Part shown: positions 60,198 through 64,000 of the stretch, piece by piece
Numbering within the stretch: position 1 is the first letter of the stretch
How the letters are laid out: every line of letters starts with the position of its first letter
Origin: a virus
IMG/VR virus record: IMGVR_UViG_3300017991_000003
Coordinates: 1 to 64,000 of that record
DNA length: 64,000 bases
Strand: one strand, 5' to 3'
Notes under the pieces: generated by a model
The model's input: only the letters and a program-made list of their open reading frames with translations
Database searches by the model: none
What the model was told of the DNA's origin: nothing
Made by a program: the position numbers and the translations under genes

Positions 60198-60427
60198 CGG
60201 CGATGTCTGGTATCCCGCTTGATCTCGCGGAAGTTGGTAGTGACGGCCTTGCCCTGACGGCGGTCAAAGATGTAGGCCAGCGTGCGGTTATCGGTGAAGA
60301 CAGCGAGCGCCCGAGCGGCGCTCACCTGTCTTTTGAAGCTCTCGTGGTACTGGTACCGGTCGTGGGTGCCGTAGAACCAGACCTCGAAGCGGGGGACGCC
60401 CTTTTCAGGGTTCGGGATCCTCGTCAT
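60194..60427 (-). CDS. hypothetical small protein
   Basis: ATG at 60427..60425; start uncertain. Confidence 0.3.
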   Translation of the reverse strand: MTRIPNPEKGVPRFEVWFYGTHDRYQYHESFKRQVSAARALAVFTDNRTLAYIFDRRQGKAVTTNFREIKRDTRHRR

Positions 60428-60953
60428 GATCAGGGGGATGGCAACAGCCGTCACAGCCGTGGATGCCGAAGATGTCAGAGACGTGACCCTGCGCAGCGAA
60501 GAACGCGAGAGCATCGGGATCGGGGTGACCGACGCCGTGCTCGCAGTGCCTCTCGGTCATGCCCGAGGCACGAATGCTCTTGGGCCAGTCCTTCATGTGG
60601 TGATCCGACGGGTTGTGGAAGGGGCAGTGGTGCCCCGCACAAGCGTCCGGCGGGTGTGCCGGGATCGGCTCGGGGTTGTTGGCTAGCCCCAAGGCGGCCA
60701 GATCATCAGCCACGGCGGCGCTGATTACAGCCTCGTGGGCAATCGCGGACCAGTGGCCGATCACGGCTCCGGTGCGGATGTTCGCCCACATTTTCGAGGT
60801 GTATGGCGGGTCAAGATCCTCGATACGTATCCACGTACCCGCTAGACGGCCGGTTGGGATCGTGACCTTATAGCCGGGCTCTGCGTGTTCGATCCGCTTG
60901 ACGATCGGGAGGCCTTCGATCTTCTTCCAGCTGTGCTCTTCTTGATCAGCCAT
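60405..60953 (-). CDS. His/Cys-rich putative metal-binding protein
   Basis: 182 aa; multiple HxH / CxxC-like clusters (GHHCPFH, HCEHGVGH, GCDGCCH). Confidence 0.45.
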   Translation of the reverse strand: MADQEEHSWKKIEGLPIVKRIEHAEPGYKVTIPTGRLAGTWIRIEDLDPPYTSKMWANIRTGAVIGHWSAIAHEAVISAAVADDLAALGLANNPEPIPAHPPDACAGHHCPFHNPSDHHMKDWPKSIRASGMTERHCEHGVGHPDPDALAFFAAQGHVSDIFGIHGCDGCCHPPDHDEDPEP

Positions 60954-61179
60954 CGGCTACATCTCCTTCGACCGTGGGGGTTGTCCAGGCAGCCGCTAGG
61001 TGGTCGCCGGGGATCTCGAGTGTGATGAGCTTCATGTGGCTGCTAGATAGCTCCGCCTCCTCAAGGGCTTGCGCCCAGCCTGTGGGGTTCTCGTCAATCG
61101 TGTACTCATCCCACGCGTCTTTGAGCCAGGCTTCGGACCAGTTGCCGCTGTCCGACAGCCAGATGGTGTGGATCTTCAC
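60946..61179 (-). CDS. hypothetical small protein (77 aa)
   Basis: ORF. Confidence 0.4.
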   Translation of the reverse strand: MKIHTIWLSDSGNWSEAWLKDAWDEYTIDENPTGWAQALEEAELSSSHMKLITLEIPGDHLAAAWTTPTVEGDVADG

Positions 61180-61409
61180 TTGTCGATCTTCTCCAGTAGC
61201 CAGGTAAGCAGCCGACCCAGATCAGGCCTGACTAGGTCGTTGCCGGGGTTCGCCGCGCGCCAGCGCTTGACCGCCTCGGTCATGCGCGTTTCCTGGAGCT
61301 CGAACAACCCCTCGTACTCGCGGACCTCGTTTTTGAGCTTCTTGTTCTCCTCCTCGAGCGCAGCGATCCGCTTGCGAAGCTCGAGAGTATCTCTCCAGGG
61401 TGCTTTCAT
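61176..61409 (-). CDS. small coiled-coil protein
   Basis: ATG at 61409..61407; LELRKRIAALEEENKKLKNEVREYE heptad-like. Confidence 0.4.
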   Translation of the reverse strand: MKAPWRDTLELRKRIAALEEENKKLKNEVREYEGLFELQETRMTEAVKRWRAANPGNDLVRPDLGRLLTWLLEKIDK

Positions 61410-61678
61410 AATCGGTGTGGGGCAAAAAGCGGCGCGGGTCACCAAGTCTACAAACTGATGACACCGCGCCGCTAGGCTTCTCAGGGACTACCTCGGGCCT
61501 CTACGCAAAGCTCTTGTCTTTGAAGGACTTAGACTCGTGGTCGAGTGCGCTTGGATAGCATCAGCGAGTAGATCTGCTAGATGATCCGCACGCTCCTCAG
61601 GGGTAGGTGCTTTACGGGCGCGTAGCTCGCGCTTACGTATCCATCTTTGGCGGCGCCTGTGTCGGCGCTTGCTACTGG

Positions 61679-62083
61679 TCATAGGTATGCGATCTGGAAG
61701 AGGCCTTGAGTACCGCCGTCGATCGGGTTCACGGCTTGCACGCCGATCTCGTCGTCATCCGCTAGATCACGCGTACCCATGAACACACCCGTTGGGGGAT
61801 CAATACTATTCACGGAGAGGCCGACGACCTCGCCCGCCGCTAGGTCCCGATGAGCCTCCAGCTGGTACAGAACGCCCCATCGTTTCGCTCGCCAGATCGG
61901 CCCGGTACGTCGAACGACGGGTTCTGGCTCCTCTTCTTGAAGGTGCTCCTGAAAGTGCTCCCGGATGCGATTCTCGATCTTGCGTACCTGCTTCGAGGTC
62001 CCGAGCTCGCTAGCAGCTGAAAGAGCCTCGAGAAGATCATCCAGACGCTGCATCGGCGTGGGCTCGTCGAGGGGTCTACGCAT
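61679..62083 (-). CDS. hypothetical protein (134 aa)
   Basis: ORF. Confidence 0.45.
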   Translation of the reverse strand: MRRPLDEPTPMQRLDDLLEALSAASELGTSKQVRKIENRIREHFQEHLQEEEPEPVVRRTGPIWRAKRWGVLYQLEAHRDLAAGEVVGLSVNSIDPPTGVFMGTRDLADDDEIGVQAVNPIDGGTQGLFQIAYL

Positions 62084-62441
62084 GACTGGCTAGGAGCTCT
62101 CGCAAGACCTCGTAGTCCTCCCTCCTCATCTGGAGCGATACGTAGCCGCGAGGCCACGGACCACCGCTGGGGCGGGCCAGGGAGTCCAGGAGTTCCCGGA
62201 TTTGCTGGCACTCCTTCGCAGTGTCACGGTGACGAAGCGTGACCGGGACGATCTTGTAGCCCCGCCGAGACGCAGACTGGCGAGACTCTCCCCACTTCTT
62301 CCAGAAGCGGTCCGCCCACTCGCTGCCTAGGTGGTAGGCCACATGCTCGAAGGACTCGCCCCAGGCAGCGTCTTGGCTGTCGGAGACAGTGTCTGGCTCG
62401 ATGGTGCCGTCGGGTAGTTGTAGTGCGTACAGCATGATCAA
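62076..62441 (-). CDS. hypothetical protein (121 aa)
   Basis: ORF, 8-nt overlap with downstream gene. Confidence 0.45.
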   Translation of the reverse strand: MIMLYALQLPDGTIEPDTVSDSQDAAWGESFEHVAYHLGSEWADRFWKKWGESRQSASRRGYKIVPVTLRHRDTAKECQQIRELLDSLARPSGGPWPRGYVSLQMRREDYEVLRELLASHA

Positions 62442-62537
62442 TCCTCGCAGTTGCCCGCGGGTCTGGGGTAGTTGCAGTAGGGGCAGGGGTCGTCATGGCA
62501 GGTCTCCGCCGGCCGATCCAACTCGGCCCCGCACATG

Positions 62538-63044
62538 TCACAGGTCGGTTTCAAGTGACTGATCCAGCTCCGCGAGCTGATCAAGGACCTCGGCGCGGTC
62601 TCGCCACTCATCAGGATGAGGCAGGATGCTCTGGTACGTTTCTAGTAGGCGCTCACCGCGACAGAGCCAGCACCAGTCCTTCTCGCTTTGATGACGCTCA
62701 GGACAGGGGCATGGGAGCTCATCCGGGTCGGCGTAGGCGTTCACACGCTCTTTGATGAACTCGATAAGAGGGGCCACCTCCTCAACACGCACAAGATTGT
62801 GCATCTGCTGATTATCGATCACCGTATGCCAGACCCCGCTCATTCGGGCTCGCTCAGCTTTGAGTCGAACAGCGGCATGAAACTCTTCCCAGGCCGCCGG
62901 ATCCCACCACCACGCAGCATAGACCGGACAGCTGGAGCTGTCGCATCGGACCTTGTGCGGGGTTGATGGGGTTAGCGGCACCTCAGTCGGCGGCTGCTCA
63001 CACAGGGAACAGGAGCACAGCTCTTTAGTCATCATCATCACCAT
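62538..63044 (-). CDS. Cys-rich hypothetical protein
   Basis: CSCSLCEQ, CDSSSC, CPCPERH, CWLC clusters. Confidence 0.45.
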   Translation of the reverse strand: MVMMMTKELCSCSLCEQPPTEVPLTPSTPHKVRCDSSSCPVYAAWWWDPAAWEEFHAAVRLKAERARMSGVWHTVIDNQQMHNLVRVEEVAPLIEFIKERVNAYADPDELPCPCPERHQSEKDWCWLCRGERLLETYQSILPHPDEWRDRAEVLDQLAELDQSLETDL

Positions 63045-63375
63045 CTAGATCGAGGCCGCACTTCCAGCAGATACGAGCGAGCGGATCTTCGGGCGTACCG
63101 ATCGGATCATGGCGTCCAGCAGCGCAGCCGCGGGCTCCGCACTCGGTGCAGATCCACTCACCAAAATCGTCGTCGAACCTCATCGACTCATGAGGGCAGT
63201 TCTCATCCCCACCGCGGGCCTCGTCGATGGCATCAACGATAGCCTCTTGGAGGTCCTCAATAGCAGACACAGTGTGCGCAACCAGGAGTAGATCCGACTT
63301 TACGACGTTGATCAGGTGCTCGATCTTCTTGGTAATCAAGTCCGGGCACTTACGCGCTTTAGAGGTATCACTCAT
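63025..63375 (-). CDS. Zn-ribbon protein with poly-Asp tail
   Basis: CPHES...CTECGARGC...CWKCG; ends DLDGDDDD. Confidence 0.45.
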   Translation of the reverse strand: MSDTSKARKCPDLITKKIEHLINVVKSDLLLVAHTVSAIEDLQEAIVDAIDEARGGDENCPHESMRFDDDFGEWICTECGARGCAAGRHDPIGTPEDPLARICWKCGLDLDGDDDD

Positions 63376-63814
63376 CGCAGTGGTAGGGATTGAGGCGGGC
63401 TAGGGACTCAGCATCGTGCCCGCGTGGGCAGAACTCGAGAGCCCCCGCCAACCAGACATCCGAGAGGTACCCCCGGACCGCGTGCTGGGCCTGCACCAGA
63501 TCGAACTCGATTGTGGTCTCGGGGCACAGCAGGCATGCCGGATCGCCGCATACGCCGGGGTCGGTGAGTAGGCCCGTGCAGATGACACAGCGCTTATCAA
63601 CCGCCGAATCGGCCTCGATGAGCGGAGGGATCTGACCAAGCAGCTCTTCAAGCTCGACGAACCGATCGCCGTCGGAGACATAGGCCTCCCAGTTTTCGGC
63701 ATCATCGCAGAGCCCGGCCTCGGCCTTGGCCTCTTCAACCATGTAGTCGTAGGTGAGCTGCAACTGCTCACGCACGGTTGCAAGATCTAGCTCGTGATGA
63801 TTCTTAGTACTCAT
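63368..63814 (-). CDS. Cys-rich hypothetical protein
   Basis: ATG at 63814..63812 preceded by AGGAGG; track start 63841 is an upstream in-frame ATG. Confidence 0.5.
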   Translation of the reverse strand: MSTKNHHELDLATVREQLQLTYDYMVEEAKAEAGLCDDAENWEAYVSDGDRFVELEELLGQIPPLIEADSAVDKRCVICTGLLTDPGVCGDPACLLCPETTIEFDLVQAQHAVRGYLSDVWLAGALEFCPRGHDAESLARLNPYHCDE

Positions 63815-64000
63815 GCGAACGCCTCCTGGCAGTTGACGCATCTGTTGGTGTTCGGGGGGTTGATGTTGTCACACTGCTCACAGGTCCAGGTGGCGCCGGC
63901 AGGTACTTCCCCCTCAGCCTTGCGGATCTCTTCGATCTCCTTGCGGAAGGCCTCCTCGTCAGCGGCCCACCACTGGCCGGGCGCCTGCCCGTCGAGCTGG
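63811..64000 (-). CDS. 3' end of a CDS with C-terminal RanBP2-type Zn-finger-like motif (partial)
   Basis: Frame reads ...WTCEQCDNINPPNTNRCVNCQEAFA* with TGA overlapping the next ATG (ATGA). Confidence 0.4.
   Translation of the reverse strand, partial: QLDGQAPGQWWAADEEAFRKEIEEIRKAEGEVPAGATWTCEQCDNINPPNTNRCVNCQEAFA

What the first reader, a model, noticed from the sequence alone, without database searches (positions are those of the whole stretch)
60405..64000. Cluster of small Cys/His-rich ORFs at the far end of the - strand block
At least five consecutive small ORFs carry CxxC or HxH clusters, Zn-ribbons, a poly-Asp tail or a C-terminal RanBP2-like finger. This is typical of early host-takeover genes, but the density is notable and they could target host transcription or defence factors.
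Basis: partly seen in the sequence, partly recalled or inferred. Interest (0 to 1): 0.45.

Follow-up and report, generated by a model that had tools for sequence, protein, structure and literature searches.

The report
Island of small zinc-knuckle phage genes
The region is the window-side part of a 9.5-kb island of about 25 small genes, half of them unrelated cysteine-rich zinc-knuckle mini-proteins, lying between the DNA polymerase and helicase genes of an uncultured large phage; this is an ordinary kind of phage accessory region, and only one gene carries a widely conserved but undescribed His/Cys domain.

Summary
Five consecutive minus-strand ORFs (62438-64000, called G, H, I, J and K here) carry paired CxxC knuckles. 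The 116-aa ORF ends in DGDDDD. The ORF cut by the window edge ends in a RanBP2/NZF-type finger. The 182-aa ORF (60405-60953) is 9% His. Island proteins hold 3.5% Cys against 0.83% elsewhere, and the knuckle pairing exceeds every shuffle.

The block does not end at 64000. It is an island of about 25 genes running 9.5 kb from PolA to UvrD inside the replication module of an uncultured phage of at least 175 kb. The nearest relatives keep the same gene order but have only 0.8-2 kb there. None of the Cys-rich ORFs is conserved in them, in cultured phages or in the sampled viral contigs, and the ORFs are not paralogs of each other.

The exception is the C-terminal 80 aa of the 182-aa ORF. This is a strongly conserved His/Cys domain (444 proteins, more than 239 viral contigs, 29 cultured phage records, 28 from actinophages) with no match in Pfam, NCBIfam, PHROGs, PADLOC or the PDB.

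These are most likely Zn-stabilised binding modules in a fast-turnover accessory slot. An early or host-takeover role is neither supported nor excluded. Overall this is ordinary.

The parts
63811..64000 (-). K: C-terminal 62 codons and stop of a 163-aa ORF (full ORF 63811-64302, running past the window end). It has an unannotated helical N-terminal domain and a C-terminal RanBP2/NZF-type Cys4 finger (WTCEQCDNINPPNTNRCVNC).
   Evidence: Sequence. Pfam Zn_ribbon_RanBP E = 6.8e-5, 22.5 bits, below GA 27. PDB phmmer hits only Nup153, TAB3, TAB2 and Npl4 fingers. The N-domain is 30% identical over 117 aa to a hypothetical protein on Variovorax megaplasmids.
63368..63814 (-). J: 148-aa ORF whose start overlaps K's stop as ATGA. 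It has five Cys in CVIC-x9-C-x4-CLLC, plus CPRGH and HC near the C-terminus.
   Evidence: Called by the JGI and ENA pipelines. No family hit. No tblastn match in phages, plasmids or the fetched loci.
63025..63375 (-). I: 116-aa ORF with a helical N-terminal half and then two putative Zn sites (CPH...CTEC and C-x4-H...CWKC), ending in DLDGDDDD.
   Evidence: Pfam Zn_Ribbon_TF E = 0.0028, 17.6 bits, below the 29-bit cutoff. HMMER against 1.84 billion cluster representatives finds only itself and a repeat protein that matches only the last knuckle.
62538..63044 (-). H: 168-aa ORF (164 aa if it starts at the fourth ATG, 63032). N-terminal CSCSLC...C-x4-C and C-terminal CPCPERH...CWLC knuckles. Its ATG run is the same DNA as I's (GAT)n poly-Asp tail.
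   Evidence: Gene callers disagree on the start: 101 aa against 168 aa. No homolog found.
62438..62611 (-). G: 57-aa ORF with CDMC-x11-C-x4-CPYC. It overlaps H by 74 nt and ends 2 nt before F's start. Probably real, but not called by any pipeline.
   Evidence: GC3 0.84. It fills an otherwise 102-nt gap in a tightly packed operon. Not in the protein collection.
62076..62435 (-). F: 119-aa ORF with no Cys/His motif.
   Evidence: No family hits.
61679..62083 (-). E: 134-aa ORF with no Cys.
61488..61682 (-). D: doubtful 64-aa Arg-rich ORF. Its start overlaps the stop of E as ATGA, but its GC3 is only 0.49.
   Evidence: Never called as a gene.
61176..61409 (-). C: 77-aa ORF (89 aa from the TTG at 61445) that looks like a leucine-zipper coiled coil.
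   Evidence: Sub-threshold DivIC and bZIP hits, E 0.001-0.007.
60946..61179 (-). B: 77-aa acidic ORF with no Cys.
60405..60953 (-). A: 182-aa ORF. Residues about 92-182 (60408-60680) form a strongly conserved His/Cys domain: H-x4-C-x-G-x2-C-x2-HNPSDHHM-x-DWP...ERxCxHGVGHPDPD...HGCDGCC, with 13 conserved potential metal ligands.
58934..59395 (-). Island boundary: a 153-aa ORF directly upstream of UvrD. It is the only ORF of the PolA-UvrD interval conserved in the nearest relatives.
   Evidence: 63% and 56% identity in L084 and L089.
57025..58971 (-). UvrD/PcrA-like helicase, the conserved downstream anchor of the island.
   Evidence: Pfam domains. Synteny in relatives.

Best explanation
The finding covers the promoter-distal 40% of a lineage-specific accessory island: about 25 tightly packed, co-directional, translationally coupled small genes spanning 9.5 kb (window 58971 to about 68487 in extended coordinates). 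The island fills a variable slot between the DNA polymerase I gene and the UvrD-like helicase gene in the replication module of an uncultured high-GC tailed phage of at least 175 kb.

About half of the genes encode mutually unrelated mini-proteins built around one or two Cys4 or Cys3His knuckle pairs (zinc-ribbon, treble-clef or RanBP2-type). I infer that these are Zn-stabilised binding modules made together with the replication proteins. Each would bind a host or phage protein or nucleic acid, with metal coordination giving a very small and fast-evolving polypeptide a stable fold.

The 182-aa ORF differs from the rest. It carries a widely conserved multi-metal His/Cys domain of unknown activity that recurs in the replication and nucleotide-metabolism neighbourhoods of many phages.

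Shown: gene anatomy, Cys clustering, synteny, lack of conservation, lack of paralogy, and conservation of the A domain.

Inferred: metal binding, binding-module function, and time of expression.
For: - Phage identity and context: terminase, sigma factor, RuvC, PolA, Toprim, UvrD, ResIII and RecA-like genes.
- Island size: the PolA-UvrD interval is 9.5 kb here. It is about 1.9 kb, 0.8 kb and 1.4 kb in relatives with the same gene order.
- Conservation: only the 153-aa ORF next to UvrD is conserved in those relatives. The relatives carry a different N-terminal CxxC...CxxC ORF in the same slot.
- Real genes: coding GC pattern, 4-20 nt overlaps and SD enrichment.
- Cys enrichment and knuckle pairing exceed composition and cluster along the genome.
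- The island ORFs are not paralogs of each other.
- K's finger matches the RanBP2/NZF type.
- A-domain conservation and neighbourhoods (helicase loader, DnaB, clamp loader, PolA).
- Similar though less dense runs of knuckle-bearing small ORFs occur in other high-GC viral contigs, for example L050 5341-8095.
Against: - No metal binding, expression or interaction data exist.
- All Pfam zinc-ribbon hits are below threshold.
- Only I and A had an exhaustive homology search, so J, H, G and K are 'orphans' only against phage, plasmid and locus sets.
- Only one genome sequence is known; all assemblies are 100% identical. Purifying selection on the ORFs therefore cannot be measured.
- Codon-usage scores are somewhat lower than for other small genes (p = 0.013).
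- G and D are not called by gene finders.
Confidence: 0.7

Rival explanations
1. This is an early host-takeover or counter-defence module. The small Zn proteins would be made first and would shut down or redirect host transcription, division or defence systems, as the SPO1 host-takeover cluster does.
For: It is a cluster of about 25 small, orphan, fast-turnover genes, the same order of size as the 26-gene SPO1 host-takeover module (abstracts of 10.1101/569657 and PMC6873191, listed). Non-conservation even among relatives fits arms-race genes.
Against: - The ORFs sit in the middle of the replication gene chain, between PolA and UvrD. They are coupled to their neighbours by 4-20 nt overlaps.
- There is no promoter-like site and no terminator excess in 58900-64000.
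- There are no hits to defence-related or transcription-factor families.
- Timing and toxicity are untested.
Confidence: 0.3
2. These are replication or recombination accessory factors. The Zn knuckles would bind DNA or RNA, or dock onto the phage polymerase, helicases or primase, as the zinc-binding domains of primases and other replication proteins do.
For: Location inside the replication module. A-domain genes lie next to helicase loader, DnaB, primase, clamp-loader or PolA genes in cultured and uncultured phages.
Against: Core replication accessory factors should be conserved in relatives with the same module, and they are not. No similarity to known replication Zn domains was found.
Confidence: 0.2
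3. These are non-functional or spurious ORFs: gene-prediction artefacts, decaying genes or very young de novo ORFs, whose Cys patterns carry no function.
For: No homologs for most ORFs. Lower codon-usage score. Disputed starts for H, and G and D not called.
Against: - Genome-typical GC1/GC2/GC3 pattern.
- Operon-like overlaps and SD enrichment.
- Cys pairing exceeds every one of 2,000 composition-preserving shuffles.
- The other five reading frames hold many stops and only 1-10 CxxC each, against 24 in the called proteins.
Confidence: 0.08
4. These are Fe-S or redox proteins (WhiB-like) or remnants of HNH homing endonucleases rather than Zn-binding modules.
For: Cys4 sites can bind Fe or Fe-S clusters. 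WhiB-like genes and HNH genes are common in actinophage replication regions (general knowledge; an HNH gene lies near the A-domain homolog in phage GiJojo).
Against: No WhiB, HNH or rubredoxin family hit even at E <= 1. The knuckle spacings differ from the WhiB C-xn-C-x2-C-x5-C pattern.
Confidence: 0.05

Closest known systems
SPO1 host-takeover module (a cluster of 26 small early genes of Bacillus phage SPO1)
   Same: A contiguous block of about 25 small co-directional genes, mostly without homologs, in a large lytic phage. This is the nearest described gene-cluster concept (abstracts of 10.1101/569657 and PMC6873191).
   Different: No sequence similarity. The SPO1 genes are not characterised by Cys knuckles, and they lie in an early-promoter-driven region (own knowledge). 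Here the block is embedded between PolA and UvrD, with no detectable promoters. Early expression and toxicity are untested.
RanBP2/NZF-type zinc fingers (Pfam PF00641; Nup153, TAB2/TAB3, Npl4)
   Same: K's last 25 residues fit W-x-C-x2-C-x3-N-x6-C-x2-C. The only Pfam and PDB matches are to this type.
   Different: The score is below Pfam's gathering threshold. The ubiquitin-binding T-F dipeptide of NZF fingers is D-N here (sequence compared from memory of Npl4/TAB2). The finger is fused to an unannotated prokaryotic N-domain whose only found relative is on Variovorax megaplasmids.
Small phage or plasmid C4 zinc-finger regulators (P2 Ogr / P4 Delta; TraR/DksA C4-type)
   Same: Small size and a two-knuckle Cys4 site in a phage protein, so it is plausible that these work in a similar way by docking onto host machinery.
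   Different: No Ogr_Delta hit. TraR (TIGR02419) scores only E = 0.26 for K. They are not members of these families.
Actinophage WhiB-like (Wbl) Fe-S proteins
   Same: Cys-rich small proteins common in high-GC phages (own knowledge).
   Different: No WhiB Pfam hit, and the Cys spacing differs.
Uncharacterised actinophage proteins: Mycobacterium phage Phrappuccino gp110, Streptomyces phage GiJojo gp110, Gordonia phages Sixama gp186, Neville gp67, Daredevil gp8, Bantam gp80
   Same: They belong to the same His/Cys domain family as residues about 92-175 of the 182-aa ORF: 38-54% identity by tblastn, and Foldseek probability 1.0 with TM-score (query-normalised) 0.45-0.70 against the BFVD models. 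They also sit among small ORFs in replication modules.
   Different: Most family members are stand-alone proteins of 100-110 aa. Here the domain follows a 90-aa poorly conserved N-terminal extension. No family member has a known function.

Membership tests
RanBP2/NZF-type zinc finger (PF00641), for ORF K | Sequence pattern W-x-C-x(2,4)-C-x3-N-x6-C-x2-C | tested here: met
   WTCEQCDNINPPNTNRCVNC at K residues 139-158.
RanBP2/NZF-type zinc finger (PF00641), for ORF K | Profile score at or above Pfam's gathering threshold | tested here: inconclusive
   22.5 bits against GA 27, E = 6.8e-5. PDB phmmer gives Nup153 at E = 0.012 and TAB3 at 0.017.
RanBP2/NZF-type zinc finger (PF00641), for ORF K | One Zn2+ bound by the four Cys | not testable with these tools
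   Needs metal analysis of the purified protein.
Zinc ribbon (two CxxC-type knuckles on beta-hairpins), for ORFs G, H, I, J | Two Cys/His knuckles 6-50 residues apart | tested here: met
   Listed for each ORF. The pairing exceeds all 2,000 within-protein shuffles.
Zinc ribbon (two CxxC-type knuckles on beta-hairpins), for ORFs G, H, I, J | Significant match to a curated zinc-ribbon profile, or a confident structural model | tested here: inconclusive
   Best hits are Zn_Ribbon_TF E = 0.0028 (I) and Zn_Ribbon_1 E = 0.11 (G), both below cutoff. H and J have none.
SPO1-type host-takeover module | Contiguous cluster of many small phage-specific genes | tested here: met
   About 25 ORFs of 57-240 aa in 9.5 kb.
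SPO1-type host-takeover module | Early promoters and early expression, in a position apart from the replication genes | tested here: not met
   The block lies between PolA and UvrD within one co-directional chain, and no sigma-70-like promoter is found. The promoter scan may not fit an unknown host. Timing itself is not testable here.
SPO1-type host-takeover module | Products toxic to, or inhibitory of, host processes | not testable with these tools
   Needs expression in a host.
WhiB-like (Wbl) proteins | Match to the Pfam WhiB profile, with C-xn-C-x2-C-x5-C spacing | tested here: not met
   No hit at E <= 1. The spacings differ.
HNH / His-Me finger endonucleases | HNH profile match, or a beta-beta-alpha-Me fold match | tested here: not met
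Ogr/Delta and TraR/DksA C4 zinc-finger regulators | Profile match | tested here: not met
   No Ogr_Delta hit. TIGR02419 scores E = 0.26 and 11.9 bits against a cutoff of 59.7.
Unnamed phage His/Cys domain family (HNPSDHHM...HGVGHPDPD...HGCDGCC), for ORF A | All invariant residues of the family alignment are present | tested here: met
   H100 C105 C110 H113 P115 S116 H118 M120 W123 R128 E134 R135 C137 G142 H143 P144 D145 P146 D147 H165 G166 C167 G169 C170 C171 are invariant across 37 sequences including the query. The same holds for the 95-sequence alignment.
Unnamed phage His/Cys domain family (HNPSDHHM...HGVGHPDPD...HGCDGCC), for ORF A | Already described in a curated family library or solved structure | tested here: not met

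The most novel reading that the evidence does not exclude
The C-terminal 80 residues of the 182-aa ORF (60408-60680) would define an undescribed multi-metal His/Cys fold. It has 13 conserved potential ligands plus invariant Asp, Glu, Arg and Trp, which may mean a small metalloenzyme rather than a passive Zn module. The domain is widespread in the replication modules of phages with 27-68% GC. The surrounding PolA-UvrD slot would act as a nursery where unrelated Zn-knuckle mini-proteins are repeatedly gained and lost.
Probability: 0.35. Interest if true: 0.5.

Novelty: new member of a known kind. Interest (0 to 1): 0.3.

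Why it matters
Blocks of small orphan genes are the main reservoir of unknown phage biology, including host-takeover and counter-defence proteins. This one is unusually rich in metal-knuckle mini-proteins. It scores 8 of 16 consecutive genes with an automatic gene caller, against at most 6 of 16 in 48 comparison loci.

The practical value lies in two points. First, the slot between PolA and UvrD is a defined variable site in a phage lineage with conserved synteny. Second, the 182-aa ORF points to a large conserved His/Cys domain family that no curated library describes. That family has homologs in cultivable Gordonia, Mycobacterium and Streptomyces phages, so its function can be tested directly by deletion and metal analysis.

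Nothing here overturns current understanding.

Tried and rejected
1. Nucleotide searches (megablast and blastn) of the region against 50,697 phage records gave no match. The phage is far from all cultured phages; PolA is at most 30% identical.

2. Scans of all in-window ORFs and ten out-of-window island ORFs against Pfam, PHROGs, NCBIfam and PADLOC gave nothing at or above threshold.

3. I submitted a concatenated 1,059-aa query to the search for homologous proteins. It returned no hit at all, not even the ORFs themselves, so the result is uninformative and the last search of that kind was lost.

4. Exact-peptide scans of IMG/VR with K, I and H returned only the source contig.

5. A genome-contig scan with the alignment of K and the Variovorax protein returned only Variovorax again.

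6. An all-against-all comparison of the island ORFs found no convincing paralogy. The best hit was a 26-residue knuckle match at E = 6e-4 in a 26-sequence database. A lineage-specific duplication model is therefore rejected.

7. Pfam scans of longer A-domain homologs, looking for fused domains, gave nothing at E <= 0.01. A suspected RusA-like tail in P0022 was not confirmed.

9. Rfam, tRNA and promoter/terminator scans found nothing in the region.

10. Cluster look-ups at 90% identity returned only alternative start calls of the same phage, so no variants exist for a selection test.

11. I considered a frameshift fusion of H and G. The upstream G frame holds several stops and there is no positive evidence, so I did not pursue it.

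Full report
**What the window is.** The window is 62% GC and is clearly a tailed phage. The + strand block (1-43 kb) includes a large terminase subunit at 24211-26040. The - strand block (43.2 kb to the window end) encodes a sigma-70 family factor, RuvC, a RecA-like protein, a ResIII helicase and a UvrD-like helicase.

The same sequence is found, 100% identical, on an IMG/VR contig of 91.6 kb, an ENA contig of 174.7 kb, a JGI contig of 193 kb and a Logan contig. It has no nucleotide match among 50,697 deposited phage genomes, and its PolA is at most 30% identical to any of them.

**The observation.** Reading the minus strand from the window end gives the following ORFs.

- K: 163 aa, 63811-64302, so only its last 62 codons are in the window. 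It ends in WTCEQCDNINPPNTNRCVNCQEAFA.
- J: 148 aa from the ATGA overlap at 63814. It has CVIC-x9-C-x4-CLLC.
- I: 116 aa, 63025-63375. It has CPH...CTEC...C-x4-H...CWKC and ends in DLDGDDDD.
- H: 168 aa, 62538-63044. It has CSCSLC...C-x4-C and CPCPERH...CWLC.
- G: 57 aa, 62438-62611. It has CDMC-x11-C-x4-CPYC.
- F, E, D, C and B (62441 down to 60946): no Cys/His motif.
- A: 182 aa, 60405-60953, with 17 His and 6 Cys.

The enrichment is not a composition effect.
- Island proteins hold 3.5% Cys against 0.83% in the other 57 genes. They carry 24 CxxC against 13 in six times fewer residues.
- 12 of 25 ORFs have paired knuckles against 7 of 57 elsewhere (Fisher p = 0.0011).
- None of 2,000 within-protein shuffles reaches the observed 12 ORFs with paired knuckles.
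- Permuting gene labels along the genome gives P = 0.027 for a run of five or more and P = 0.005 for 10 or more in 16 genes.

**Are they genes?** The ORFs show the genome's coding signature: median GC1/GC2/GC3 of 0.63/0.45/0.76 against 0.66/0.43/0.77 for other small genes. They are packed with start/stop overlaps of 4-20 nt at 17 of 25 junctions, and SD-like motifs are enriched: 11 of 27 starts against a 21% background, p = 0.016. Codon-usage scores are somewhat lower than for other small genes (p = 0.013).

Two ORFs are uncertain. G overlaps H by 74 nt and no pipeline calls it. However, it exactly fills an otherwise 102-nt gap, ends 2 nt before F, and has GC3 of 0.84. D has GC3 of 0.49 and is never called, so I treat it as doubtful.

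One small detail concerns I's poly-Asp tail. The (GAT)n run that encodes it is the same DNA as the ATG-GTG-ATG-ATG-ATG start region of H. The tail may therefore be constrained by the overlap rather than functional in itself.

**The real extent.** 'The far end of the - strand block' is a window-edge effect. The 20-kb locus L001 from the 174.7-kb contig shows that the chain continues upstream: Toprim primase, a 449-aa ORF and PolA, followed by about 14 more small ORFs before K. Seven or eight of these are again Cys-rich, for example a 165-aa ORF with 13 Cys and a 74-aa ORF with 8 Cys.

The whole PolA-UvrD interval is 9.5 kb and holds about 25 ORFs. The finding therefore covers the downstream 40% of a larger island inside the replication module, not a terminal early region.

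No sigma-70-like promoter is found in 58900-64000, and terminator-like sites are no more frequent than in shuffled sequence. No Rfam family or tRNA is found anywhere in the window.

**Conservation.** A search with the UvrD helicase against 5.8 billion proteins found nothing between 100% and 47% identity. The nearest relatives (46-47% identity: L084-L086 and L089; 35%: L087 and L088) keep the order Toprim, a 360-460-aa ORF, PolA, a few small ORFs, UvrD, ResIII, RecA-like. In them the PolA-UvrD interval is only about 1.9, 1.4 and 0.8 kb.

Of all the island ORFs, only the 153-aa ORF next to UvrD (58934-59395) is conserved there, at 56-63% identity. Two relatives carry a different, mutually homologous ORF with an N-terminal CxxC...CxxC in the same slot.

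The in-window ORFs B to K have no tblastn match in the phage collection or in 79 other viral loci. K, I and H match only the source contig in IMG/VR. An exhaustive HMMER scan of 1.84 billion cluster representatives with I found only itself and a repeat protein that matches only its last knuckle.

The island ORFs are not paralogs of each other. The single partial exception to orphan status is K's N-terminal domain, which is 30% identical over 117 aa to a hypothetical protein on Variovorax megaplasmids.

The criterion is weak, because the relatives are distant and accessory genes turn over quickly.

**Family assignments.** No Pfam, PHROG, NCBIfam or PADLOC family reaches threshold for any ORF. 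K's finger scores 22.5 bits against Zn_ribbon_RanBP (GA 27, E = 6.8e-5). A PDB sequence search of K, J, I, H and G hits only RanBP2/NZF fingers (Nup153 at E = 0.012, TAB3 at 0.017, then TAB2 and Npl4), and only through K. I has a sub-threshold TFIIB zinc-ribbon hit (E = 0.0028). WhiB, HNH, Ogr/Delta and TraR/DksA assignments all fail.

**The conserved exception.** The last 80-90 residues of A form a strikingly conserved domain. It has 444 homologs at E <= 0.01, mostly stand-alone proteins of 100-110 aa with 45-65% identity, none carrying a Pfam domain.

The consensus is H-x4-C-x-G-x2-C-x2-HNPSDHHM-x-DWP-x4-R...ERxCxHGVGHPDPD...HGCDGCC. About 25 columns are invariant, including 13 Cys/His.

The domain occurs on at least 239 IMG/VR contigs; the 79 retrieved loci span 27-68% GC. 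It also occurs in 29 cultured phage records, 28 of them from Gordonia, Mycobacterium and Streptomyces phages (the other is a Stenotrophomonas phage), always annotated 'hypothetical protein'. There it sits among small ORFs near helicase loader, DnaB, primase or clamp-loader genes.

**Interpretation.** The best-supported picture is a lineage-specific accessory island in a variable slot of the replication module. It encodes a diverse set of small proteins, many of which use one or two metal-knuckle sites as their structural core. I infer that they are binding modules acting on host or phage macromolecules, and that they are co-expressed with the replication genes.

Comparable though less dense runs of knuckle-bearing small ORFs occur in other high-GC viral contigs. 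With the same automatic caller, the maximum is 6 of 16 genes and a run of five in L050, against 8 of 16 here. The phenomenon is therefore recurrent rather than unique.

**Verdict.** The mechanistic reading is plausible but unsupported. The overall kind of feature, an orphan small-gene island in a large phage, is well known. The one element worth following up is the undescribed His/Cys domain family represented by the 182-aa ORF, because it is large, sharply conserved and testable in cultivable actinophages.

Noticed in passing
L001 6070-6486 (= 66890-67306 in extended window coordinates, outside the window): A 138-aa island ORF (...VVQIKEKFGTLRIY...CEFC...CRCDAC) has homologs in 11 of the 79 viral loci fetched through the A domain. 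They lie 0.5-3.7 kb from the A-domain gene, on contigs of 39-63% GC, which suggests a recurrent gene neighbourhood. It has no Pfam or PHROG family.
   Followed up: partly
window 1054-6228 and 11611-18765 (+ strand): Two very large ORFs of 1,724 and 2,384 aa lie in the structural block upstream of the terminase. They were not examined.
   Followed up: no
window 44771-45619 (-): A phage-encoded sigma-70 family factor (Sigma70_r2 E = 1.5e-9, r4 E = 1.7e-8) lies at the downstream end of the replication block. A relative (L089) has one in the same place.
   Followed up: partly
window 59475-60197 (-): A 240-aa ORF just downstream of the Cys/His cluster starts with a HAD motif I (CVDFDGVIH). It has a sub-threshold HAD_SAK_2 hit (E = 4.9e-4). 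It is not conserved in the relatives.
   Followed up: partly
window 58934-59395 (-): A 153-aa ORF overlapping the UvrD start is the only PolA-UvrD interval gene conserved in the relatives (56-63% identity). It has no Pfam or PHROG family and is probably a helicase partner.
   Followed up: partly
window 63025-63044 (-): The (GAT)n run encoding the DGDDDD tail of the 116-aa ORF is read in another frame as the ATG-GTG-ATG-ATG-ATG start of the next ORF. This gives four alternative in-frame ATG starts.
   Followed up: yes
L095 5596-6405 (Variovorax sp. SRS16 plasmid 2, NZ_LR594667.1 103587-104396): A hypothetical 269-aa megaplasmid protein shares the N-terminal domain of ORF K (30% over 117 aa, including YLQ[LV]DGxxPGxW). 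It lies in a region of hypothetical genes between a DNA topoisomerase gene (4 kb upstream) and a tyrosine recombinase gene (5 kb downstream).
   Followed up: partly
L050 5341-8095 (IMGVR_UViG_3300036797_000054); also L062 and L040: Other high-GC viral contigs hold runs of small ORFs with paired Cys knuckles (five consecutive in L050). Zn-knuckle-rich small-gene stretches therefore recur in this kind of phage.
   Followed up: partly
P0122 (helicase homolog on a 25.7-kb ENA contig): The closest UvrD relative is 922 aa long and carries an intein domain (PF14890) that is absent from the window's helicase.
   Followed up: no
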